The notes under the pieces: generated by a model
What the model saw: the letters and a program-made list of their open reading frames with translations, nothing else
Database searches by the model: none
What the model was told of the DNA's origin: nothing
Shown: in pieces, positions 1,501 through 29,413 of the stretch
How positions within the stretch are numbered: position 1 is the first letter of the stretch
Layout: the number at the start of each line of letters is the position of its first letter
Position numbers and translations under genes: made by a program
Source of the DNA: Corynebacterium amycolatum
GTDB taxonomy: Bacteria > Actinomycetota > Actinomycetes > Mycobacteriales > Mycobacteriaceae
Strand: one strand, 5' to 3'
Length of the DNA: 32,000 nt
Assembly (NCBI RefSeq): GCF_049243625.1
Contig: NZ_CP046975.1

Positions 1501-1763
1501 GAATTATTCAACTCCTTCTCTTTCATCCGGACTATGACCGTCGGTTTCGGATTCCAACCGAAATCTGCTTGTCCCCTACCTGATGACCCTTCTGGCCACA
1601 GGTAGGGCGCTCGTGGACTTGTCTGCGTCAGCCGCAGCTTCACCACCGGTGAGGAATTTCACCTCGCCCTGAGAATGCGATTTCAACGTTAGCACTGTCG
1701 CCTTGTGCGCATGTGCATTTTATTCAATGAGGATCTAATACAGTCCCGACATAATTACGAATC

Positions 1764-17524: not shown

Positions 17525-17530
17525 TCTTCT

Positions 17531-17570
17531 TAGTGGCGGGGGCTGGATTCGAACCAACGACCTCTGGGTT
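17531..17570 (-). repeat. Attachment-site direct repeat: displaced 3' half of tRNA-fMet (T-arm plus acceptor 3' strand, no 5' half)
   Basis: It aligns with 29337-29376 at an offset of 11,806 bp. The 14-bp block ACGACCTCTGGGTT is identical (17557-17570 and 29363-29376). The two internal mismatches (17544 and 17556) are compensatory in the T-stem, and the sequences diverge immediately at 17571. Confidence 0.85.
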
Positions 17571-17676
17571 CTCACCCTCATGTTCGAGCCACCTGCAGTT
17601 ATTGCCCTTTTACCTGCTGTTTAGAGAGGTATCAGTATACTGGCGCCTACTGGTCTTTACCGCAGATTACCGACTC

Positions 17677-18918
17677 TTAAGTCCCGTTTTGAGTCCCACT
17701 TTCTTCACCGAGATTCAAGGCGCCCCGCATAGCGTCTACATCAGTCCAATCCGTGTAGTTGCGCGCGTTCACGTCGACGTCATGCCCGAAATAGGCTGCA
17801 CGCACCTGGGCGGGTACCCCTCGCGCGATGGCCCGGTTATTGAGCACCGTGCGCCAGTCATGGGATCTCATTAAAGCGATGTGGTTGTCCTGGAGCTGCG
17901 CGCCAACATCTTTAAACAGAGCCGCTGACGCTTTCACGGCGTTGTCGGTGCGCCAGTGCGCCTTCTTGTCTCCTGGCGAAGGGATCAGTGGATCGGTCGT
18001 TTCTAGTCCGTCGAGCCGGTTTAACCAGAACTTTTCGACACGCTTGTCCAGGAACGGGATAGAACGGTCTCTGTGCGTTTTAGATTGCTCAGATGTAATG
18101 CTGATAGCGATCTGCCCATTAGCGACTTTTACAGAATACCTCGTCACTGCCAGTGCCTCGGAGATGCGAAGTCCCGTCCCCGCTTGCAGTAGTGCCAGCG
18201 CGACCACGTTGTCATGTTTTGCGATGGAGCTTGCTCGTCTGTCCGTGCCCGGTGGTAACGGTCTGGCGGTATCGCGTGCAATGAGATGGTCTACAACGGC
18301 GTCGTATTGGGCGTTCGTCAGGGCGTGACCACCTTGTGGTTTATTGCCCTTCTTGACCTCGCCGAGGTCGATGCTGATTCCGCGTAACGGGTTGTGGTCG
18401 ATAACACCCTCGCGGATGAGCTGATCCAGAATGTACTTGCTCACGACGGTGCGGGCCTGCCGTGCAGATTCCGACCCGTTTGCGGTGGCGATGGCCTGCA
18501 ATGCGTGTTCGAGAGTTCGGAATTTCACAGCTTCGCCAATGGCGTGTTTTCCTAGCTGTGCTTCGGCCTGCTTTAATGCGAGCTCATACCGGGCGCGCGT
18601 GTTCGGTCGCAGACGTGCCGCCCGGATGGCCGGCTTAGAGACGTCGGTAATGAACGCCGAGAAGTTCTTGCTCTTATCCCAATTGGTCGACGTCGAGTTG
18701 AGCTTGCTATCCCGCTTCTCGACGGCAATTCGCCGGAATTCCCCCTTTGTCCTTGCCCGGATTGTCGGGCGGTAAGTCGTTCCGTCCCATAGTCGGACCG
18801 TGATTTTCGCTTCGTATGGACCTCGCGGCGGTAAAGCATCAACGACGCGGTCGATGGAATCTTCCCCAAGGCTTAGTTTCGTTCTGGCGGCACGTATTTG
18901 CTTGGACATACACACCAC
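17677..18918 (-). CDS. int: Tyrosine-type site-specific recombinase (integrase)
   Basis: The C-terminal catalytic domain has R (GLRISEAL), H-x-x-R (SHDWRTV), FGHD and the nucleophile Tyr (NARNYTD). The N-terminal SAM-like domain has ARYELALKQAE. The start could be GTG 18918 or ATG 18909. It lies next to the att repeat. Confidence 0.9.
   Translation of the reverse strand: MVCMSKQIRAARTKLSLGEDSIDRVVDALPPRGPYEAKITVRLWDGTTYRPTIRARTKGEFRRIAVEKRDSKLNSTSTNWDKSKNFSAFITDVSKPAIRAARLRPNTRARYELALKQAEAQLGKHAIGEAVKFRTLEHALQAIATANGSESARQARTVVSKYILDQLIREGVIDHNPLRGISIDLGEVKKGNKPQGGHALTNAQYDAVVDHLIARDTARPLPPGTDRRASSIAKHDNVVALALLQAGTGLRISEALAVTRYSVKVANGQIAISITSEQSKTHRDRSIPFLDKRVEKFWLNRLDGLETTDPLIPSPGDKKAHWRTDNAVKASAALFKDVGAQLQDNHIALMRSHDWRTVLNNRAIARGVPAQVRAAYFGHDVDVNARNYTDWTDVDAMRGALNLGEESGTQNGT
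17680..17698. repeat. 19-nt repeat AGTCCCGTTTTGAGTCCCA (copy 1, overlaps the last int codons); candidate arm-type recombinase site
   Basis: It matches 29251-29269 at 18/19 positions. Each copy contains two AGTCCC half-sites 12 bp apart. The copies lie about 110 bp and about 94 bp from the two core copies, so they would flank the core in a circular attP. Confidence 0.6.
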
Positions 18919-19451: not shown

Positions 19452-19534
19452 AATATAACCAGCCGTACCTGCGACGGTTGGCCACCGAGGCACCGGGTAC
19501 AATAAGAACCCAAGGTTTGCAACTCGGATATGCA

Positions 19535-19568
19535 GGCCCCCAAAGCGGATAACCGCTAGGCCGGGGCC
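19535..19568 (+). other. Nested GC-rich hairpin (GGCCCC..GCGG-ATAA-CCGC..GGGGCC) between the 161-aa ORF and xis
   Basis: The complementary arms were read directly. The following T-run is weak (CTTTC), so a terminator function is uncertain. Confidence 0.3.
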
Positions 19569-19592
19569 CTTTCAGCATGTCTGGAGCAAACC

Positions 19593-19820
19593 TTGAAAGG
19601 TGTTTCTAATTTAAAACTGGTCGATCATGCCGAGCCTATTGCGGTTAAAAGTTCGGTAGCGGCATCCCTGATCGGAATTGCCCCTCAAACTCTCAACAAC
19701 TGGCGTGTTCAGGGCAAAGGGCCCAGATACGCCAGCGTGGGTACCAACCTCGTCGTCTACAGAATCGCTGATATTGAGGCGTGGCTAGATGAGCATGTTG
19801 TCGGTGGTGAGAAGCCATGA
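19593..19820 (+). CDS. xis: Excisionase / AlpA-type helix-turn-helix DNA-binding protein
   Basis: The 75-aa protein carries AASLIGIAPQTLNNWRVQGKGPRYASVGTNLVVYRIADIEAWL, an HTH_17/MerR-like excisionase pattern. The TTG start is preceded by GGAG. Its stop overlaps the PolB start (ATGA at 19817-19820). Confidence 0.75.
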   Translation: MKGVSNLKLVDHAEPIAVKSSVAASLIGIAPQTLNNWRVQGKGPRYASVGTNLVVYRIADIEAWLDEHVVGGEKP

Positions 19821-22800
19821 CGACAGCGAACGAGGCGTGGAGCATAGAGATCTCCCCCAAGGACGCGCCCGACACGGTGCGTCATGAGCATGAACTCATC
19901 GAGCTTGACGTGAATGGCACCGAGTGGCAATCACGCCTCGTCGACACTGCCGTCGACGTTCCTGGGCGTTCTGACCCGTCGTACTTCACCGTTTTGGTAC
20001 GTCGTAAACCTCGATCTGTGGCTAAGGTCTCGGAGACCTTGGCCACGATTTCAGGCAGTTCTACGGACGTTCCTGCTGGTCAAGACCCTAAAGTCGTTTC
20101 AGGCCAAAATCCCCTAGGGGAGAGGCAGAATGGCCGGACCGGAGAGTCCGGCCATCGTGACTCCGGCCACCGTGACTCCGCAGCAGCAGCAGCGGTGGAA
20201 GCCGCTGCGGTTGCAGGGGTTGATGCCGGTGTCGATGTTAAGAGTTTCGGCCAGCTACCAACTGTGAGGTCGATGGGTAGTGGCGGTCGCCGGGCTCAAG
20301 TGATCGGGTTTGATACTGAGTTCACCTACCGCGAAGATGACCCCGCTAAGCGCGTCATCGATAGCTATCAGTTCGCCTGTACTGATGCTCTCGATGATGG
20401 TGTTCTCGTACAGGTGGTTGTGTTGCCTCTGGCGGGTGATCGCATCTACCTTGAGGATGCTCTCTACATCGTCAGTCTTGCAGGCGGTCTGCATGTCCTG
20501 TCACCCTCTCGGGAGCCTATCGATCCTCGTGGCGTGCTCGTCCGCGATGTAAGGAAACTCAACCCTCGGGGAAAATTTGACTACTCCGCCACGCGAGATG
20601 CGGCGTTCAAGGCTCGCATTGCCGTCGTCCTGGCGTGTCATTTCGGCAACGCCGATCTGACCGCTTTTCGGCGCCCTCCCGAGCAGCGCAATGGTGGGGA
20701 AAAACATTATGACATCCTCCGCCGCGTGACCTCTGCTTCGGGGGGCTTAGTTTCGCTGCAACCTGCCCGCTTCATGCGCAAGTCTGGCAAAGGCTCCAAC
20801 AGCTATCGCTGGTTGCCGTTCTCTGTGACCGTTCGTGACACGATGTGTCAGGCTGCACCCGGTCATAAGAGTCTCGCTGCTCTTGGCGATGTTTGCGGTG
20901 TTCCTAAGCTTGATGTTGGTTCCTCAATCGAGAATATGACCTCAATGCGTCGTGACGATCTGACGTCGTTCCTCGAATATGGGGTGAATGACGCGGTCAT
21001 CGTTGTTGAGTATCTGGCGATGCTGTGGGGTCTCAACATCGTTCCGCCTGTCACCCTTTCGGGTGCGGGTGCCAGTGCTGTCCGCGACGGAATCATGCGC
21101 TACATGGGCGACAAGGTGGTGAAGGACTTCCTCATCAACTTTCGCGGTCTCGTGCGGTTGACGGACCCTGAACCGTTTTTAGACCATGACCAACTTTCGT
21201 ATTACACCACACGAGAGTTGGTACCCGTGGACGGCGATGCCAATCAATCCCACACTGCGTGGAAAATGGCGTTTCACGGAGGCTGGAACAGTTGTCTGTC
21301 TCCTGGTCACCACCCTTACCCGACCTTCGATCACGATATCCAATCTGCGTACCCATCTGCGATGGCATCGGTGATTGATGTGGATTATGTGGGCGGTTGT
21401 ATCGAGGAGGTTGTGAAGGACCGGGTACTTACACTGGACGACTTTCCGTTAGGTCCCATCACCCCGTTAGTTGCCTATGTGAGTTGGAATTTCCCGGATG
21501 ATGTTGTTGCGCCTTGCTTGCCGGTGGTCGTCGGTGACTGCGTGTTATATCCACGAACGTCTGACGGTGCTGGAGCCGCGCAAGGTGACGATGTTGGGGG
21601 GTATGACGGGTTTCATGGTGCTTGGTGCGCTGGACCTGAGTTGTACCTTGCGTTGAAGCTGGGGGCGACGGTGCGTGTTCAGATTGGCTACCGCATGAGG
21701 TTGCGCATGCAGTCTGATAGTACTCCGTCCCGATCACTGCGCTTCGCCCTCCGACAGATGGTTGAAGACCGTGCGACTGCGAAGAAGATCTTCGGCAAGG
21801 GGTCGCTGGAAGAGCAGACCGTCAAGGTTGCGACAAACTCGGTCTACGGGAAGCTGGCCCAGGACGTCTCCGAGCGTAACGGGTGGGGTGCATGGGCTGA
21901 GGAGATGGAGTCTATTGGTGGGTCGTCCGTAACCTCTCCCTATCACGCGTCGATGACAACGTCGCTTGTTCGCGCTCTTCTTCTGGCGATGGCCAATACG
22001 ATTCCGATTCTGTCTGTCACGACTGACGGCTTCATCACGCCTGTTGAAGAGATTGAGCACTTTGATTGCTTTGGCATCGCGAATGTGTTCCGTGCCGCTC
22101 GTCGTGCGTTGGTAGGTGATCCGACGGTCTGGGAGATCAAGCACTACCAGGACGATCTAGTGAATTTCTCGACGCGTGGCAATGTGTCCTTGCTGGAACA
22201 CGGTGTGCTCGCTAAGGCTGGGTTGAAAGTTCCTGAGGAGGTTGAACGTGGGACCGTCGCGGAGCGTCGCTGGTTTCGCGATACCGCTCTTTCACGCCGG
22301 GGAAAGATACCTAACCCCTACACGTCTTTCCCAACATTTCGGGAGTTGTCGCGGTCCGTAAACCGGTTGGACTTCCACCCGGTGGATCGCACGCCTGAGG
22401 TCTCAACGGTGGACTTTGACCTAAAACGGCAGCCTCTACGTGGCACGCTCCGGGTTGATGTGATTGACGGCAACGAAATGGCGGGGTTCGACACTTGCGC
22501 GTGGGACTCAGTCGACGACTATAAGCATGCACGTGGGATCGCTGGTCACATGCAGTTGGTTCGGTATGGGACCACAGGTGTTGACCGTCCTACTGGGTGT
22601 CTGCGCACGGGTCATGATTGGGAGACCTGGTTTAAGCGTTTTGAGTCTGCTCGGGGTCGTCGTATCCGTACGGCTGACAGTGCCCTACTCACCGAACTCG
22701 TTGCCGCGCATAAGGCTGGTCTTGTCGTCGTTGACCGTTTGGCTGTTCGCGTTTCCGTGGCTCAGAAGGTGGGTTGGTTGTCCTCTTTGGGGATGGGTGA

Positions 22801-22927
22801 ATTCACCCGGGCGCAGTGGGATCACATGAGCAAGAAGGTTCGGCGTTCGACGGTGCTACGCGATGCCGATATGGATGCTGTTCGTGCCTTTGCCGATGAG
22901 CTGAATCGCGGTGATGGCTATGTCTAG
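19817..22927 (+). CDS. Family-B DNA polymerase with 3'-5' exonuclease domain, piPolB-like (primer-independent PolB candidate)
   Basis: ExoI is IGFDTEF (aa 163-169), ExoII is HFGNADLTAF (275-284) and ExoIII is EYGVNDAVIV (387-396). Motif A is DIQSAYPSAM (507-516), motif B is KVATNSVYGK (670-679) and motif C is the variant TTDG (735-738). These are followed by KHY (775-777) and STRG (785-788). Confidence 0.85.
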   Translation: MTTANEAWSIEISPKDAPDTVRHEHELIELDVNGTEWQSRLVDTAVDVPGRSDPSYFTVLVRRKPRSVAKVSETLATISGSSTDVPAGQDPKVVSGQNPLGERQNGRTGESGHRDSGHRDSAAAAAVEAAAVAGVDAGVDVKSFGQLPTVRSMGSGGRRAQVIGFDTEFTYREDDPAKRVIDSYQFACTDALDDGVLVQVVVLPLAGDRIYLEDALYIVSLAGGLHVLSPSREPIDPRGVLVRDVRKLNPRGKFDYSATRDAAFKARIAVVLACHFGNADLTAFRRPPEQRNGGEKHYDILRRVTSASGGLVSLQPARFMRKSGKGSNSYRWLPFSVTVRDTMCQAAPGHKSLAALGDVCGVPKLDVGSSIENMTSMRRDDLTSFLEYGVNDAVIVVEYLAMLWGLNIVPPVTLSGAGASAVRDGIMRYMGDKVVKDFLINFRGLVRLTDPEPFLDHDQLSYYTTRELVPVDGDANQSHTAWKMAFHGGWNSCLSPGHHPYPTFDHDIQSAYPSAMASVIDVDYVGGCIEEVVKDRVLTLDDFPLGPITPLVAYVSWNFPDDVVAPCLPVVVGDCVLYPRTSDGAGAAQGDDVGGYDGFHGAWCAGPELYLALKLGATVRVQIGYRMRLRMQSDSTPSRSLRFALRQMVEDRATAKKIFGKGSLEEQTVKVATNSVYGKLAQDVSERNGWGAWAEEMESIGGSSVTSPYHASMTTSLVRALLLAMANTIPILSVTTDGFITPVEEIEHFDCFGIANVFRAARRALVGDPTVWEIKHYQDDLVNFSTRGNVSLLEHGVLAKAGLKVPEEVERGTVAERRWFRDTALSRRGKIPNPYTSFPTFRELSRSVNRLDFHPVDRTPEVSTVDFDLKRQPLRGTLRVDVIDGNEMAGFDTCAWDSVDDYKHARGIAGHMQLVRYGTTGVDRPTGCLRTGHDWETWFKRFESARGRRIRTADSALLTELVAAHKAGLVVVDRLAVRVSVAQKVGWLSSLGMGEFTRAQWDHMSKKVRRSTVLRDADMDAVRAFADELNRGDGYV
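20147..20193 (+). repeat. Tandem 15-bp repeat (TCCGGCCAYCGTGAC x2) followed by (GCA)4 inside the PolB N-terminal extension
   Basis: Read directly. It encodes SGHRD-SGHRD-SAAAA in a low-complexity linker. Confidence 0.8.
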
Positions 22928-23109: not shown

Positions 23110-23583
23110 ATGGAGCCACAATCGCCCCGAGCACCACGGATGCCGAGCGCCCCACGAGCGCCGCGCAGTGGAGCTAAAACAGGCGCGGAAATGGAGGAGA
23201 GCAGGTACGCCGCGGAGGAGTCTGCGAAGGGGCTTATCGCCGGTTTGGTTGGTCTAGACCGCGCCGATATTATCCGTCGTTCCAACCGAGTCCAGGAGAT
23301 TCTGGACGATTTTGCCCAGCACGCCCCAAAAGAAGAAGTGTCTTTGGAGCAGCTTAAAGCGGAGGGAGAAAAGGTTGACGCTGAGCTTGATCAGCTAGAG
23401 CAAACCCTCGATGAGCGCGCTCAGTCGCGGCGGAAAAAGCAGAATCAAGGTGGCTACCCACCGCAGCCGCCGCGGGAAAAGAAGCCTCGTGTCCCTCGGG
23501 TCAAAAACCCGCGATTCACCCCACTTTTCCAGAATGAACCAGAAGAAAAAGACACCAGTAAAGGATGGGAACCAGAACTATGA
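23110..23583 (+). CDS. Hypothetical protein (157 aa), Pro/Arg-rich N-terminus and coiled-coil centre
   Basis: The ATG at 23110 lies 5 nt after AGGAGG (23099-23104). The product contains LEQLKAEGEKVDAELDQLEQTLDERAQ. I recognise no family. Confidence 0.6.
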   Translation: MEPQSPRAPRMPSAPRAPRSGAKTGAEMEESRYAAEESAKGLIAGLVGLDRADIIRRSNRVQEILDDFAQHAPKEEVSLEQLKAEGEKVDAELDQLEQTLDERAQSRRKKQNQGGYPPQPPREKKPRVPRVKNPRFTPLFQNEPEEKDTSKGWEPEL

Positions 23584-23957
23584 TTACGAAGTCTCAGACC
23601 GCTTCGTCGGTAAAAAAGATTGAAGCTCTCCGCCAGGAGCGGGAGCAAAAAGAAGCCGAAGAAGCCAAGAAGGTTGAGGAGTTTAAGCGTCAATTAGGCG
23701 AAGTTCTCTACGCCTGCGCTTATGAGCCTTCAAGCAAGTGGTCCAAATTTCGCGGCGGTTCCGTAAGGGAACTGTTCGCAGAAATCGGTATACGGGAGGA
23801 AACCTCCTGTGAAGCGTCCGAGGAACACGAGAGCGCACATCGCGGGGCGGACGAAGGAGCCGATAAAGGCTTCGAAGTCGATTCCGAGGACTCTACAGAG
23901 TCAGAGGAATCCCCCGCAGGCCCGGAGCACGCAGACCCTTATGGTCTGCAAGCGTAG
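23580..23957 (+). CDS. Hypothetical acidic protein (125 aa)
   Basis: The ATG at 23580 overlaps the upstream stop (ATGA), which suggests translational coupling. The N-terminus is a charged helix and the C-terminus is acidic and disordered. Confidence 0.55.
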   Translation: MITKSQTASSVKKIEALRQEREQKEAEEAKKVEEFKRQLGEVLYACAYEPSSKWSKFRGGSVRELFAEIGIREETSCEASEEHESAHRGADEGADKGFEVDSEDSTESEESPAGPEHADPYGLQA

Positions 23958-23968
23958 GGCCAGAGGGT

Positions 23969-23989
23969 CGAGGGAGAGAATCTCCCTCG
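23969..23989 (+). other. Perfect 9-bp stem / 3-nt loop hairpin (CGAGGGAGA-GAA-TCTCCCTCG)
   Basis: Read directly, 12 nt after the stop of the 125-aa ORF. There is no T-run. It could be a terminator or part of a structured oriT/origin region. Confidence 0.4.
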
Positions 23990-24030
23990 CCAGCGCCACG
24001 AGGCACCGGAGGTGCCCGAGTGGCTTGCTG

Positions 24031-24070
24031 GCCGCCTGTTTGCCGCCTGCCGCCTGTTTGCCGCCTGTTT
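24031..24070. repeat. Tandem 11-nt repeats GCCGCCTGTTT (3 full copies plus one 7-nt partial), iteron-like
   Basis: The full copies are at 24031-24041, 24049-24059 and 24060-24070, and the partial GCCGCCT is at 24042-24048. Confidence 0.85.
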
Positions 24071-24101
24071 GTGAGGGCCGTCTTTGACGGTGGCGAGTAC
24101 G

Positions 24102-24126
24102 CCTGAATCTGCCCCGCAGATTCAGG
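24102..24126. other. Perfect 11-bp inverted repeat CCTGAATCTGC-CCC-GCAGATTCAGG; candidate oriT hairpin
   Basis: Read directly. It lies about 105 bp upstream of mobC and the relaxase, the usual position of an oriT recognition hairpin. Confidence 0.5.
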
Positions 24127-24232
24127 GGGCCGACACCGGAGAAGCGTGACCCTTACAAACAGACTGTGGCCCTGGCTGCATCAGCAGTCGGGGCCACCCT
24201 GCCACAGTAAGCACGATAAGTAGGAGGTGGAT

Positions 24233-24595
24233 ATGCGAGACAAGTTCTCGACATATTCGCGTACAACCGTGCGCCTCGATAAGGATTTAGACCGATTTGT
24301 CGAGGAGGTCGCACGGGTCGTAGGGGTGCAAAAGGCCGTCGTGTTCCGGGAAGCTCTCTATGTCCTCGCGGAGGAGGAGAGCGTGCTGACGCAAAAGCGT
24401 TTGGCCCCGGACACGCTGCGCCGCCTGGACGAGATGAACGACCAACTGCGGCGGATTGGCGTCAATCTAAACCAGTTGGCTCGCCGCGCGAATATCGACG
24501 GCGTGGCCCCCGTGTCTGAGGCTGTAGAAAGCATTGGCTCCGAGGTTTCTTCTCTTCGCAAAGAGGTGAAGGACTTTGTCCACAATCAAGATTAA
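24233..24595 (+). CDS. mobC: MobC-family relaxosome accessory protein
   Basis: The C-terminal motif LRRIGVNLNQLARRAN is the MobC-family signature. The N-terminal region looks like an RHH fold. The ATG at 24233 lies 5 nt after AGGAGG (24222-24227). Confidence 0.8.
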   Translation: MRDKFSTYSRTTVRLDKDLDRFVEEVARVVGVQKAVVFREALYVLAEEESVLTQKRLAPDTLRRLDEMNDQLRRIGVNLNQLARRANIDGVAPVSEAVESIGSEVSSLRKEVKDFVHNQD

Positions 24596-26186
24596 CTACA
24601 GCCAGAATATCCGCGCGGCAACGGTCTACGCCGTCTATGGAACGGCAGACAATGCCCGCAAGGGTGAGGTGCGAGCCGATGCTTTATGCACGGTTCAACC
24701 TAACGCTGAATCGTTTTCTCCGGAGGCTACGGCTGGCCGTTGGTCGGGTGTGGACTTCATGGAAGCCAGTGTGGAAGAAATGGAGCGATATGCTCCGGCT
24801 CAGCGCACTGACGAAGCAATTATTTATATCCAATCGTGGGCTAAAGACGAGCTGGATAAGGATAACCCGGCCGATGTAGCTCGGGCTAATGCGGCTGGCT
24901 CAGAGCTGGCGATGCGGCTGACGCAGGGCACGGGAGTTCCGTTTACCGTGGCTACGCACACCGACAGTAAAAGCGGCTGTGTCCACAACCATATCGTCTT
25001 TGCCAACCACGATACGCAGACAAAGAAGGCTGCACCTCGGGATATGCGCAACTGGTACAAGCTGCGCAATATCAACGACGAGCTGATGCGCGATTTGGGG
25101 ATGCGTGTCCTGGAGCGAGAGCCGGAAATATCGCTGCTTCCTGCTGAGCGCAGGGCACGCAAGGAGGGCAAGTCCACAGACTCGACGGGCCTGGGCGTGG
25201 ATGAGCTGACCGCAGCCACGTGGGCTGATTTTGCCCGCAAGCGCATGGATGAGCTGTGCGCGGATAAACAGGTGGCAGATGCTGACGACCCACTGGCGAA
25301 GGCAGTAGAGATTGCTGGCAAATACAACCTGTCTCTAAAAGTGCAGCCCAACTCAAAAACCGAGGGTGAGTCGCTAACCGTGGCCCTGGTCGACGACGAC
25401 GGCGAGGATGCCTACTTCACGAACACCACGAAGGCCGGACGTACTCGAAAGCGTAAAGCAGCTAAAGCTGGCTCAAAATTGGGCCGCAGCTACTCGCTAG
25501 AGGGTGTGACCGAACGCGTTAACGAGGCCCAATCAGCCCTTCTTGCGCGGCAGCTTGCAGCACTTCAAGCCAATTCAACCGATGACGACCTGGAGGCGAA
25601 ATACGGCTCCAGCCTTCTCGATGACGAGGAGGAAGAAAACTATAACAACCAGGAGGTATTCAATCATGGTGTCAGTGACCGAGATGACGAAGCTAGCCCA
25701 AGCAGCGGCGAAAGGCAAGATGGACAGCGTCTTGAAGGTTCTCAGCCCACGCCTGGACAAGGCGGAGAAGGCTATCAAGACGCTGCAGGAGAAACTGAAG
25801 AGTCTGCCGGAGAATACAGGGGACATTCTCAGTTCTCTGCCCAGCGACTTCTCGACGAGGTTGACGCAAGCGGAAAGCGAATTAAGGAACGTAAAAAGCA
25901 ATCTCGCCGCAAACAAGAACTACGTGAGCAGCAGTCACTTCCAAGTAACGATGATGGAAGTGCAGCAGATGATCACCGGGCTGATAAGGAACATCGAGGA
26001 TCTGCCCAACGGCCTGGAGGGGGTAAAAGGGTACCTAATCGAGATAAGCGAGCAGATGTCGCGTCTGACAAGGATGCAACAGCTGGTACTCAAAGCAGCC
26101 GAAAGCCCCATCCATCTCGACAAGGATTCCAGCCAAGCAGTAGCCCAGAGCCTGAACGCTCAGATGACTTCGAGCCTGACTTCTAG
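24576..26186 (+). CDS. Relaxase/mobilisation nuclease (MobA/VirD2-type) with a long disordered C-terminal tail
   Basis: The His-triad motif is HTDSKSGCVHNHIVFANHD. N-terminal Tyr candidates lie in AATVYAVYG. The TTG start overlaps the mobC 3' end by 20 nt. The last 521 nt or so overlap the next gene in another frame. Confidence 0.8.
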   Translation: MSTIKINYSQNIRAATVYAVYGTADNARKGEVRADALCTVQPNAESFSPEATAGRWSGVDFMEASVEEMERYAPAQRTDEAIIYIQSWAKDELDKDNPADVARANAAGSELAMRLTQGTGVPFTVATHTDSKSGCVHNHIVFANHDTQTKKAAPRDMRNWYKLRNINDELMRDLGMRVLEREPEISLLPAERRARKEGKSTDSTGLGVDELTAATWADFARKRMDELCADKQVADADDPLAKAVEIAGKYNLSLKVQPNSKTEGESLTVALVDDDGEDAYFTNTTKAGRTRKRKAAKAGSKLGRSYSLEGVTERVNEAQSALLARQLAALQANSTDDDLEAKYGSSLLDDEEEENYNNQEVFNHGVSDRDDEASPSSGERQDGQRLEGSQPTPGQGGEGYQDAAGETEESAGEYRGHSQFSAQRLLDEVDASGKRIKERKKQSRRKQELREQQSLPSNDDGSAADDHRADKEHRGSAQRPGGGKRVPNRDKRADVASDKDATAGTQSSRKPHPSRQGFQPSSSPEPERSDDFEPDF

Positions 26187-26700
26187 CCTGGAACCGCTGG
26201 TAGAAGTAGCTGTATCTGAGGCAATGTCGAAAGAGTCCGAAAGCCTGCACAAGGCAGCAGAAGCATCTAAGAAGGCTCGCAGCGCCCTGCTCCAGGAGAA
26301 GGAGTCCAACGAAAAGCTGCTGGAGAAGATACGTGCAGAGCGCAAAAAGTACAACGACGACATGGAAAAGTCGAACACGAACTTTATTAAGGCCTGCATG
26401 TCTGCCTCGTGGATTGCAGCCAGTGTTCTCTTCGTTGCTATCGCACTCGTTGCTGTCGGAGCCTTGGGGAACGGGCTGCTAAGTATGCTCGGCATACCCG
26501 ACGGCGTGTCTGCCTTGTGGGGTCACGTCCAGGAGGCCAACGGCATCGGCCCAACACTGGGCTGGTTGGCGTTAACACTTATCGTCATAGGGGTTCTTAT
26601 AGCGCTTATGACCTGGATGTTGTCCCAGGCTGCGCCGGGTATTGCTCACTTAGTCGAGGAATACCGTCGCAATCACCCGAGGAAAGAAACGAACCACTAA
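25666..26700 (+). CDS. Coiled-coil protein with C-terminal transmembrane helices (344 aa), out-of-frame overlap with the relaxase 3' region
   Basis: The ATG at 25666 lies 9 nt after AGGAGG (25651-25656). A long heptad-like N-terminal region is followed by two hydrophobic helices (WIAASVLFVAIALVAVGALG and LGWLALTLIVIGVLIALMTWML). Confidence 0.7.
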   Translation: MVSVTEMTKLAQAAAKGKMDSVLKVLSPRLDKAEKAIKTLQEKLKSLPENTGDILSSLPSDFSTRLTQAESELRNVKSNLAANKNYVSSSHFQVTMMEVQQMITGLIRNIEDLPNGLEGVKGYLIEISEQMSRLTRMQQLVLKAAESPIHLDKDSSQAVAQSLNAQMTSSLTSSLEPLVEVAVSEAMSKESESLHKAAEASKKARSALLQEKESNEKLLEKIRAERKKYNDDMEKSNTNFIKACMSASWIAASVLFVAIALVAVGALGNGLLSMLGIPDGVSALWGHVQEANGIGPTLGWLALTLIVIGVLIALMTWMLSQAAPGIAHLVEEYRRNHPRKETNH

Positions 26701-29193: not shown

Positions 29194-29236
29194 TTGTCAC
29201 TTAACCCCATCACTTCCAAACCGGCTTAAGTGACAA
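29194..29236. repeat. Perfect 11-bp inverted repeat TTGTCACTTAA-N21-TTAAGTGACAA near the right end of the element
   Basis: Read directly. An extra GTCAC word lies at 29178. The repeat sits in the non-coding arm between merR and the att core. Confidence 0.7.
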
Positions 29237-29250
29237 AATGCCATCGCTAA

Positions 29251-29269
29251 AGTCCCGATTTGAGTCCCA
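29251..29269. repeat. 19-nt repeat AGTCCCGATTTGAGTCCCA (copy 2); candidate arm-type recombinase site
   Basis: It matches 17680-17698 at 18/19 positions. Confidence 0.6.
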
Positions 29270-29328: not shown

Positions 29329-29336
29329 TTGGAAGT

Positions 29337-29413
29337 TGGTAGCGGGGGCAGGATTCGAACCTACGACCTCTGGGTTATGAGCCCAGCGAGCTACCGAGCT
29401 GCTCCACCCCGCG
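29337..29413 (-). tRNA. Initiator tRNA-fMet (anticodon CAU), chimeric: its 3' part is supplied by the integrated element
   Basis: The minus strand reads CGCGGGGTGGAGCAGCTCGGTAGCTCGCTGGGCTCATAACCCAGAGGTCGTAGGTTCGAATCCTGCCCCCGCTACCA (77 nt). It has a 1:72 C-U mismatch, three consecutive G:C pairs closing the anticodon stem, a CAU anticodon (plus-strand ATG at 29377-29379) and an encoded CCA. Confidence 0.9.

What the first reader, a model, noticed from the sequence alone, without database searches (positions are those of the whole stretch)
23958..24226. Repeat- and hairpin-dense 269-bp non-coding region upstream of mobC/relaxase: candidate oriT and/or PolB replication origin
In order, this region contains a perfect 9-bp/3-nt-loop hairpin (23969-23989) and a GGCACC-GGA-GGTGCC hairpin (24002-24016). 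Next come 3.6 tandem copies of GCCGCCTGTTT (24031-24070) and a perfect 11-bp inverted repeat CCTGAATCTGC-CCC-GCAGATTCAGG (24102-24126). Last are nested inverted repeats, ACTGTGGC...GCCACAGT (24163-24208) enclosing CTGC-ATCA-GCAG. An inverted repeat next to a nic site just upstream of the relaxase operon is the canonical oriT layout. Iteron-like tandem repeats are more typical of replication origins. No replication origin has been defined for piPolB elements as far as I know, so this region could be either or both.
Basis: partly seen in the sequence, partly recalled or inferred. Interest (0 to 1): 0.62.

Follow-up and report, generated by a model that had tools for sequence, protein, structure and literature searches.

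The report
Folded-DNA transfer origin of a pipolin
The repeat-rich gap upstream of the mobC and relaxase genes is a conserved set of single-strand DNA hairpins that travels with the relaxase, not the polymerase, so it is most likely the element's transfer origin; the "iterons" are a strain-specific slippage.

Summary
The region folds far better than shuffled sequence (DNA z -7.0).

The hairpins are tips of a larger array, about 23931-24208: H0, H1, H2, a 98-nt hairpin D3, and H4. This array recurs upstream of mobC-relaxase in about 20 Corynebacterium species, with different sequences but the same pairing. In D3, 26 of 33 pairs show compensatory changes.

The + strand is the folding strand. It is more stable in 17 of 17 relatives, and its loops are mostly C(GNA)G triloops.

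The array tracks the relaxase:
- It persists where piPolB is absent or replaced by a PolA-type polymerase.
- It is missing beside piPolB genes that have no relaxase nearby.

The only sequence shared by all relatives is TGCTGGCC at the 3' base of H2 (24027-24034). Two independent natural deletions end there. I read this as an oriT with its nick there, at confidence 0.6.

GCCGCCTGTTT is single-copy in all but one related genome (1.6 copies) and in all ten metagenome contigs, so it is not a conserved iteron array. A separate PolB origin is not supported. The scan holds no note of this on other DNA.

The parts
23931..23949 (+). H0: hairpin GCAGACC-CTTAT-GGTCTGC inside the last codons of the upstream ORF (23565-23957)
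   Evidence: Stem variants are all complementary: GCAGACC/GGTCTGC, GCGGGCC/GGCCCGC and ACTGACC/GGTCAGT in close relatives and metagenome contigs. An equivalent hairpin is seen at this place in most of the 17 relatives.
23969..23989 (+). H1: GC-rich hairpin, 9 bp with a GAA loop, just after the stop codon
   Evidence: A GC-rich hairpin of different sequence sits at this position in nearly all of the 17 relatives.
23989..24032 (+). H2: bulged hairpin. Base helix GCCAGC/GCTGGC, 2-nt 3' bulge (TT), second helix GCCAC/GTGGC, tip GGCACC-GGA-GGTGCC. Proposed relaxase recognition hairpin.
   Evidence: The base helix is the same in 14 of 17 relatives. It co-varies in L037 (GGCAAGC/GCTTGCC). The second helix co-varies in at least 7 versions. 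It ranks 3rd of 133 descriptor hits in the whole genome by energy per nt. It is also present in the distant subfamily G028/G357/G017.
24023..24035 (+). GCTTGCTGGCCGC: the most conserved sequence of the family (TGCTGGCC). Proposed nick region, with the nick within T24029-C24032.
   Evidence: Present in all relatives as GATGCTGGCC, TTTGCTGGCC, CTTGCTGGCC or CCCTGCTGGCC. It is the right end of two independent deletions, in G174 and G349. It matches the MOBP nick core ATCCTG (PMC3772185) at 4-5 of 6 bases.
24031..24070 (+). Tandem repeat GCCGCCTGTTT, 3.6 copies: a strain-specific expansion of the 5' arm of D3
   Evidence: It has 1 copy in G001, G234, G337, G225, G174, G349 and in 10 metagenome contigs, and 1.6 copies in G238.
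24065..24162 (+). D3: 98-nt irregular hairpin. Outer stem 24065-24077/24150-24162, middle stem, inner inverted repeat.
   Evidence: Alignment A2: 33 pairs, 87.7% of cells paired against 38-44% when slid, 26 pairs with compensatory change, 0 of 500 shuffles as good. Model R1 also finds it in L047, which was not used for training (32 bits). It is absent in G017.
24102..24126 (+). Inner perfect 11-bp inverted repeat, CCTGAATCTGC-CCC-GCAGATTCAGG (tip of D3)
   Evidence: Relatives carry a different inverted repeat here, mostly with a C(GCA)G or C(GAA)G triloop.
24141..24148 (+). GAAGCGTG: conserved motif on the 3' arm of D3 (G[A/G]AGCGTG). Second-best nick candidate.
   Evidence: Paired with the conserved GCCGTCT..GA on the 5' arm. 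No equivalent was found in G017, which lacks D3. L039, L043, L044 and L045 carry a different domain at this place that model R1 does not match.
24163..24208 (+). H4: hairpin just upstream of the mobC ribosome-binding site. Main stem 24166-24197, 14 bp, two G.T pairs.
   Evidence: A hairpin of unrelated sequence sits at this place in 15 of 17 relatives.
24227..24595 (+). mobC: ribbon-helix-helix relaxosome accessory protein (probable ATG at 24233)
   Evidence: Pfam MobC PF05713, E 1e-08, with weak NikA-like and RHH_1 hits. The best solved relative is PcfF of pCF10, E 0.048.
24576..26186 (+). Relaxase (HUH type): invariant Y18 and H128-x-D130...H137-x-H139
   Evidence: Pfam Relaxase PF03432, E 9e-13. 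Invariant columns. The nearest plasmid homologue (27% identity, beside a mobC) lies on a plasmid typed MOBP.
19817..22927 (+). piPolB-type family-B DNA polymerase of the element
   Evidence: Motifs DIQSAYPS, NSVYGK and TTDG are read in the translation. PHROG DNA polymerase, E 6e-07. An earlier follow-up note agrees.
17677..18918 (-). Tyrosine integrase. It contains the two nick-like partner sites of the natural deletions: 18229-18237 GCTTGCTCG and 18897-18905 TTTGCTTGG.
   Evidence: Pfam Phage_integrase. Junctions.
17530..17577 (.). Left att repeat, a copy of the tRNA-Met 3' half. Its partner is 29336-29383 in the intact tRNA-Met (29337-29413, - strand).

Best explanation
The 269-bp gap is the core of a roughly 280-nt locus (23931-24208) that acts in cis and folds on one strand only. 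It belongs to the MobC/relaxase module of an 11.8-kb integrative mobilizable pipolin. In other words, it is the element's origin of transfer.

Proposed mechanism (inferred):
1. MobC, a ribbon-helix-helix protein, and the relaxase assemble on hairpin H2 (23989-24032).
2. The relaxase cuts the + strand in the invariant TGCTGGCC at the 3' base of H2. The cut falls within T24029-C24032, most simply after CTG, so the 5' end is G24031.
3. The + strand leaves 5' to 3', with D3, H4, mobC and the relaxase gene leading.
4. The re-formed H2 hairpin marks the site for the closing cut and rejoining.

D3 and H4 are accessory hairpins on the same strand. They could be auxiliary protein sites, or start sites for complementary-strand synthesis.

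The GCCGCCTGTTT array is a recent slippage expansion with no conserved role.

Shown here: conservation, covariation, strand asymmetry, linkage to the relaxase and the deletion end-points. Inferred: the nick position, the transferred strand and the roles of D3 and H4.
For: 1. Constraint. Against the 96%-identical element of G001, 23948-24214 has no substitution. The flanks carry 19 substitutions in 23831-24130, all left of 23948, and 16 in 24131-24430, all right of 24214.
2. Same architecture, different sequence, upstream of mobC in 17 non-redundant relatives whose relaxases are 36-100% identical. For D3, 26 of 33 pairs have compensatory changes, 87.7% of cells are paired against about 40% when slid, and 0 of 500 shuffles do as well.
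3. Strand. The + strand folds better in 17 of 17 relatives, with 106 G.U pairs against 66. Its loops include 23 GNA triloops and 7 GNRA tetraloops among 84 hairpins, against 2 and 0 among 74 on the - strand. C(GNA)G triloops are the classic very stable DNA mini-hairpins (my own knowledge), which favours DNA over RNA.
4. Linkage to the relaxase.
   - The structures occur with mobC-relaxase in genomes with no piPolB: G103, G205, G237 and G017.
   - They also occur in G218 and G139, where a 1374-1422-aa protein with a PolA domain sits in piPolB's place.
   - Five piPolB loci with no relaxase nearby lack H2 and D3.
5. TGCTGGCC next to H2 is the only sequence shared by all subfamilies, including the 31-34%-identical one. 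In G017, mobC starts about 40 nt after it, with no D3 or H4.
6. Two independent deletions, in G174 and G349, have their right ends at GCTTGCT|G|G. Their left ends fall at look-alike sites in int, GCTTGCTCG and TTTGCTTGG. Other deletions in the family show only 2-3 nt of microhomology.
7. General precedent: an inverted repeat 5' of a conserved nick sequence, with an RHH accessory factor that recruits the relaxase (PMC3772185; PMC6514445).
Against: - Nothing was tested biochemically.
- The match to the MOBP nick core ATCCTG is only 4 of 6 here and 5 of 6 in relatives.
- The two deletion junctions cannot both be explained by one fixed cut position. They differ by at least 1 nt and also fit plain microhomology slippage at the foot of a strong hairpin.
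- Only 2 of 4 mapped deletion junctions end at this site.
- Covariation and G.T/G.U asymmetry fit a + strand RNA equally well. No promoter was found between the upstream genes and mobC, so the region may be transcribed.
- With the + strand transferred, the relaxase genes would enter first. That is the reverse of RP4, though the same as ICEBs1 (my own knowledge).
- The host genome has no VirD4-type coupling protein and no VirB4-like ATPase, so transfer would need an incoming helper.
- D3 also has an inverted repeat followed by a conserved 3' motif, and could hold the nick instead.
Confidence: 0.6

Rival explanations
1. The hairpins act as RNA. They form a structured leader or intercistronic segment of the mRNA that runs from the polymerase operon into mobC-relaxase, and they control stability, termination or translation of the mob genes.
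For: - Covariation, the better folding of the + strand and the G.U pairs are just what a + strand RNA would show.
- The RNA fold has z -9.0.
- Some loops are GNRA tetraloops, such as GTAA and GAAA.
- H4 lies just upstream of the mobC ribosome-binding site.
- No promoter was found inside the gap, so read-through from upstream is plausible.
Against: - No Rfam family matches.
- The commonest loops are C(GNA)G triloops, typical of DNA hairpins rather than RNA.
- No hairpin is followed by a T-run.
- The one invariant sequence sits in a helix with a bulge, as a protein or nick site would.
- Deletion end-points point to a DNA-level hot spot.
- An element that carries a relaxase must have an oriT somewhere. 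I examined only one other non-coding stretch in it (19452-19816), and it is less structured (z -3.7).
Confidence: 0.2
2. The region is the replication origin used by the element's own polymerase (piPolB), independently of the relaxase, with the tandem repeats acting as iterons.
For: - It lies downstream of the piPolB operon in every piPolB-plus-relaxase element.
- No origin has been defined for pipolins. PMC11551731 reports no replication origin, and known oriTs in only very few pipolins.
Against: - The repeat has 1 copy in all but one relative and in all metagenome contigs, 1.6 copies in G238, and is absent in distant relatives.
- There is no AT-rich unwinding stretch. GC content stays near 0.56-0.58.
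- The structures persist without piPolB and beside a PolA-type polymerase.
- They are absent beside five piPolB genes that have no relaxase nearby.
Confidence: 0.07
3. The nick site lies in D3: the inner inverted repeat 24102-24126, followed by GAAGCGTG at 24141-24148. H2 would then be an accessory or single-strand-origin element. This is still an oriT, but laid out.
For: - An inverted repeat with a GNA triloop is followed 13-14 nt later by the conserved G(A/G)AGCGTG in most relatives.
- By eye, it loosely resembles ...GGAGCGTAGCGCCCACTCTTAC upstream of mobC in the nearest Lactiplantibacillus plasmid homologue, and the MOBQ nick region AAGTGCG|CCCT (my own knowledge).
Against: - D3 is missing in G017. 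It is replaced by a different domain in L039, L043, L044 and L045, while the relaxase is conserved.
- The motif is base-paired inside a long stem.
- D3 is duplicated in L044 and L047, whereas H2 is always single.
- No deletion ends there.
Confidence: 0.12

Closest known systems
oriT of MOBP/MOBQ plasmids (RP4 TraJ-TraI, R64 NikA-NikB, pCF10 PcfF-PcfG)
   Same: - It sits directly upstream of an operon encoding an RHH accessory protein and a relaxase.
- An inverted repeat lies 5' of a short, highly conserved sequence.
- The repeat varies in sequence among relatives while the putative nick sequence is conserved (PMC3772185; PMC6514445).
- MobC's best solved relative is PcfF.
   Different: - No sequence similarity to any plasmid in PLSDB.
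- The nick core matches ATCCTG at only 4-5 of 6 bases.
- The candidate nick lies in a bulged helix rather than in a free 3' tail.
- The locus has five conserved hairpins over about 280 nt.
- The folded, presumably transferred, strand is the coding strand of the relaxase operon. In RP4 it is the opposite strand.
ICEBs1/Tn916-type oriT plus single-strand origin (relaxase-initiated rolling-circle replication of integrative elements)
   Same: - It is an integrative element with its oriT upstream of the relaxase gene.
- The nick is on the coding strand, so synthesis or transfer runs into the relaxase gene.
- It has strand-specific, highly folded ssDNA regions.
This comparison rests on my own knowledge and was not tested here.
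   Different: - Those relaxases are MOBT (Rep_trans), whereas this one is a MobA/VirD2-type HUH relaxase.
- Those elements use host polymerase and the PcrA helicase, whereas this family carries its own polymerase (piPolB or a PolA type).
- No sso homology was found. The ssoA marks RSB and CS-6 were not recognised.
Iteron-type plasmid replication origins
   Same: Short direct repeats of 11 nt, head to tail, in a non-coding region.
   Different: - Copy number is 3.6 only in this genome, 1.6 in one relative (G238) and 1 elsewhere.
- There is no Rep initiator gene and no AT-rich unwinding element.
- The repeats are not conserved in relatives.
Pipolins (piPolB elements), as described in PMC11551731
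   Same: It is integrated at a tRNA, flanked by direct repeats, and carries a tyrosine recombinase and a piPolB. The paper already classes the Gram-positive members that encode a MOBP relaxase as IME-pipolins.
   Different: That survey found known oriTs in very few pipolins and defines none for the Corynebacterium group. This report gives a concrete candidate.

Membership tests
Origin of transfer (oriT) of an HUH-relaxase module | Lies next to the cognate relaxase/accessory operon and is inherited with it | tested here: met
   It lies directly upstream of mobC-relaxase in all 17 non-redundant relatives. It is kept when piPolB is absent or replaced, and it is absent beside piPolB genes with no relaxase nearby.
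Origin of transfer (oriT) of an HUH-relaxase module | Inverted repeat 5' of a short nick sequence that is conserved across the relaxase family | tested here: met
   H2 has covarying stems and is followed by or contains the invariant TGCTGGCC in all subfamilies. That the conserved sequence is the nick site is an inference.
Origin of transfer (oriT) of an HUH-relaxase module | Nick sequence matches the consensus of the relaxase's MOB class (MOBP: YATCCTG|Y) | tested here: inconclusive
   TTGCTG here matches 4 of 6 bases. ATGCTG and CCCTG(C) in relatives match 5 of 6. The MOB class itself is only inferred, from one 27%-identical homologue on a plasmid typed MOBP.
Origin of transfer (oriT) of an HUH-relaxase module | Site- and strand-specific cleavage by the relaxase, and cis-acting mobilisation | not testable with these tools
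   This needs nicking and mating assays. The only indirect hint is two natural deletions that end at the motif.
Iteron-containing replication origin | Three or more direct repeats conserved in number and sequence among related replicons | tested here: not met
   The repeat has 1 copy in 8 related genomes and 10 metagenome contigs, and 1.6 copies in one genome. More distant relatives have none.
Iteron-containing replication origin | Adjacent AT-rich unwinding element and a cognate Rep initiator | tested here: not met
   GC content is 0.56-0.58 across the region. No Rep-family protein turned up among the element's ORFs.
Known structured RNA family (Rfam) | Match to a covariance model at its gathering score | tested here: not met
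   The window has only an FMN riboswitch and a tRNA, both elsewhere. In 23800-24300 every match is far below its gathering score.
Single-strand origin of ssoA type | Long imperfect palindrome with RSB in the stem and CS-6 (TAGCGT) in the terminal loop | tested here: inconclusive
   D3 is a long, imperfect, strand-specific palindrome. However, AGCGT lies in the 3' arm rather than the loop, and no RSB was recognised. The ssoA marks are from my own knowledge, and no model was available.

The most novel reading that the evidence does not exclude
The same locus is both oriT and the long-missing replication origin of this pipolin family. After excision, the relaxase nick at the foot of H2 would give the 3'-OH from which the element's own strand-displacing polymerase runs rolling-circle synthesis. 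That polymerase is piPolB here and a PolA-type enzyme in sister elements. The conserved + strand hairpins (H0-H2, D3, H4) on the displaced strand would then act as the single-strand origin where complementary-strand synthesis starts. The host lacks any VirD4- or VirB4-type transfer genes, so replication would be the relaxase's everyday job there.
Probability: 0.2. Interest if true: 0.8.

Novelty: new member of a known kind. Interest (0 to 1): 0.45.

Why it matters
Pipolins are widespread, but how they replicate and move is unknown. The main survey found known oriTs in very few of them (PMC11551731). This report gives a concrete, testable cis site for the Corynebacterium mobilizable pipolins, with a strand, a hairpin and a 3-nt window for the nick.

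It also shows that the site belongs to the relaxase module rather than to the polymerase. The same backbone can carry either a piPolB or a PolA-type polymerase.

Finally, it is a clear example of base-pair covariation in DNA hairpins. That kind of evidence could be used to find oriTs that similarity searches miss.

Tried and rejected
- **RP4 resemblance.** H2 plus its flank looked like the RP4 sequence GCACCTGGCGGTGCTCAACGGGAATCCTGCT. That sequence is real in IncP plasmids. By my recollection of the RP4 map, it lies on the strand opposite the true nick (CTTCACCTATCCTG|C, 8 nt from the 19-bp repeat). I therefore dropped it as evidence.
- **Covariance model for H1-H2.** MAFFT misaligned the 5' arm because some relatives carry an extra branch. 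I used a hand-written descriptor with a genome-wide background instead.
- **Relatives outside the genus.** The alignment of 9 relaxases had no conserved stretch to search with. The 4-sequence alignment found only Corynebacterium.
- **Promoter and terminator scan.** Nothing was found in the gap. The scan uses E. coli-type consensus sequences, so this is weak.
- **Solved structures.** None for the relaxase.
- **More deletion junctions in metagenomes.** Only the G174 junction turned up again.
- **The 19452-19816 gap as an alternative origin.** It is mostly an Xis-like small ORF plus one hairpin, with z -3.7.

Full report
**1. Observation**

It is the gap between a 130-aa ORF (stop at 23955-23957) and mobC (ribosome-binding site AGGAGG, ATG at 24233).

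The + strand folds far better than shuffled sequence:
- As DNA: -76.7 kcal/mol against -50.7 +/- 3.7, z -7.0.
- As RNA: z -9.0.
- The - strand: z -5.4.

The folds show that the listed repeats are tips of larger units:
- H1, 23969-23989.
- H2, 23989-24032: base helix GCCAGC/GCTGGC, a TT bulge, second helix GCCAC/GTGGC, tip GGCACC-GGA-GGTGCC.
- D3, 24065-24162: a 98-nt hairpin whose tip is the perfect 11-bp inverted repeat.
- H4, 24166-24197.
- H0, 23931-23949: a fifth hairpin inside the end of the upstream ORF.

**2. Context**

The window lies in a complete 2.47-Mb genome.

A 48-nt copy of the tRNA-Met 3' half (17530-17577) repeats 29336-29383 in the intact tRNA. These repeats bracket an 11.8-kb element that carries:
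- a tyrosine integrase, 17677-18918, - strand
- a 1036-aa family-B polymerase with the motifs DIQSAYPS, NSVYGK and TTDG (PHROG DNA polymerase)
- two small ORFs
- the gap studied here
- mobC (PF05713) and a relaxase (PF03432)
- a SulP transporter as cargo

This matches the "IME-pipolins" of Gram-positive bacteria described in PMC11551731. That paper reports known oriTs in very few pipolins.

**3. Conservation**

G001 (C. tuberculostearicum) carries the same element at 96% identity. Divergence is mosaic: about 1% left of 23800 and about 8% to the right.

The stretch 23948-24214 has no substitution. The flanks carry 19 substitutions in 23831-24130, all left of 23948, and 16 in 24131-24430, all right of 24214. 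The only other difference is a 29-nt indel that leaves one copy of GCCGCCTGTTT.

**4. Family-wide architecture**

A search of 320 genomes of the genus with the relaxase N-terminus found 45 with a match. In 17 non-redundant loci, with relaxases 36-100% identical, a mobC-like gene precedes the relaxase. Upstream of it lies a gap of 220-350 nt with the same order of elements but mostly different sequence.

- D3: on alignment A2, 33 pairs are 87.7% paired, against 38-44% when the partner is slid. Compensatory changes occur in 26 pairs, and 0 of 500 shuffles reach the observed values.
- H2: the second helix exists in at least seven complementary versions. In L037 even the base helix changes on both sides (GGCAAGC/GCTTGCC).
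- H4: present in 15 of 17, with unrelated sequences.
- H0: shows three complementary stem versions among close relatives, although it is coding.

**5. Which strand, and DNA or RNA?**

The + strand is more stable than the - strand in 17 of 17 loci, with 106 G.U pairs against 66.

Hairpin loops on the + strand include 23 GNA triloops, mostly closed by C-G, and 7 GNRA tetraloops among 84 hairpins. The - strand has 2 and 0 among 74. C(GNA)G triloops are the well-known, unusually stable DNA mini-hairpins (my own knowledge). That tilts the reading towards folded single-stranded DNA, but it does not exclude RNA.

No Rfam family matches. The promoter and terminator scan found nothing in the gap.

**6. 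Relaxase or polymerase?**

piPolB was found in 27 of 320 genomes.

The structured region with mobC-relaxase occurs in genomes that have no piPolB:
- G103, G205 and G237.
- G017, which has H2 only. There, mobC begins about 40 nt after it.
- G218 and G139, where the place of piPolB is taken by a 1374-1422-aa protein with a family-A polymerase domain (PF00476), between the same integrase and mob genes.

Conversely, five piPolB loci with no relaxase nearby (G210, G216, G244, G044 and G256 contig 5) have neither H2 nor D3. H2 was sought with a descriptor whose genome-wide background puts the real H2 3rd of 133 hits. D3 was sought with model R1.

The locus therefore belongs to the relaxase module.

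**7. Where is the nick?**

The only sequence shared by all subfamilies is TGCTGGCC at the 3' base of H2. It appears as CTTGCTGGCC here, GATGCTGGCC in most relatives, and CCCTGCTGGCC in the 31-34%-identical subfamily.

Two natural deletion derivatives keep D3, H4, mobC and the relaxase, but join them to the integrase region. These are G174, also seen in a metagenome contig, and G349. Counted against the single-copy state of the repeat, both right ends fall at GCTTGCT|G|G (24023-24031). The left ends lie at look-alike sites, 18229-18237 (GCTTGCTCG) and 18897-18905 (TTTGCTTGG). Two other deletions in the family end elsewhere, with only 2-3 nt of microhomology.

This is the pattern expected if a strand started at the nick is closed early at nick-like sequences. 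The retained segment is the one 3' of the site on the + strand.

There are caveats:
- The two junctions differ by at least one base in cross-over position.
- They also fit slippage at the foot of a strong hairpin.
- The resemblance to the MOBP nick core ATCCTG (PMC3772185) is only 4-5 of 6 bases.
- D3 (inner repeat plus G[A/G]AGCGTG) is the second candidate. It is missing or replaced in some lineages and duplicated in others.

**8. The tandem repeat**

GCCGCCTGTTT is present 3.6 times only in this genome, 1.6 times in G238, and once in the other close relatives and in all ten metagenome contigs. It overlaps the 5' arm of D3 and starts at the proposed nick. It is a recent slippage product, not a set of conserved iterons.

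**9. Verdict**

The region is best read as the oriT of the element, with confidence 0.6. It is a new member of a known kind, with an unusually rich, strand-specific hairpin architecture.

- The RNA-leader reading keeps about 0.2.
- A relaxase-independent piPolB origin keeps about 0.07.
- The most novel reading still open is that the nick also primes rolling-circle replication by the element's own polymerase. This is made more plausible by the absence of any VirD4- or VirB4-type gene in the host.

Noticed in passing
L065:9345-13613 (-) and L066:9644-13768 (-): In C. phoceense (G218) and in G139, a 1374-1422-aa protein with a C-terminal family-A DNA polymerase domain (PF00476) sits where piPolB sits here. 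The rest of the backbone is the same: integrase, small ORFs, structured region, mobC-relaxase. This looks like a polymerase swap within one element family.
   Followed up: partly
window 18229-18237, 18897-18905, 24023-24031; L050, L052, L025, L029: Decayed derivatives of the element are common in the genus. G174, G349, G113 and G224 have lost everything between the integrase region and the mob module, including piPolB. G239 has an insertion-sequence-like end abutting D3 at 24076.
   Followed up: yes
window 17663-17698 and 29234-29269: A 36-nt direct repeat (78% identity) lies 66-85 nt from the att core on both arms. In the circular form the two copies would flank the core, so they may be arm-type integrase sites.
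   Followed up: no
L044 (G256:C3), upstream of mobC: The D3-like domain and H4 (about 100 nt) are duplicated exactly in tandem. In L047 (G205) the inner part of D3 (CCAGTGC-hairpin-GACGGC) occurs twice.
   Followed up: no
L060 (G028) and L059 (G017), upstream of mobC: In the distant subfamily an open frame runs through H2 into mobC. Even so, the H2 stem changes on both sides between genomes (GGTTCTTG/CAAGAACC against GGTACTTG/CAAGTACC). The hairpin therefore seems to be selected even inside a possible coding sequence.
   Followed up: partly
window 25543-26700: An ORF that overlaps the relaxase 3' end out of frame is conserved next to the relaxase in distant relatives (tblastn 23-29% identity in L017 and L064-L067). 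It is therefore a real gene of the mob module, of unknown function.
   Followed up: partly
window 1511-1680 (-): FMN riboswitch (RF00050, 91.8 bits), outside the element.
   Followed up: no
whole genome G000: The complete host genome has no VirD4/TraG-type coupling protein (PF02534) and no VirB4-like ATPase (PF12846). The element has no resident helper for conjugation by these two markers.
   Followed up: partly
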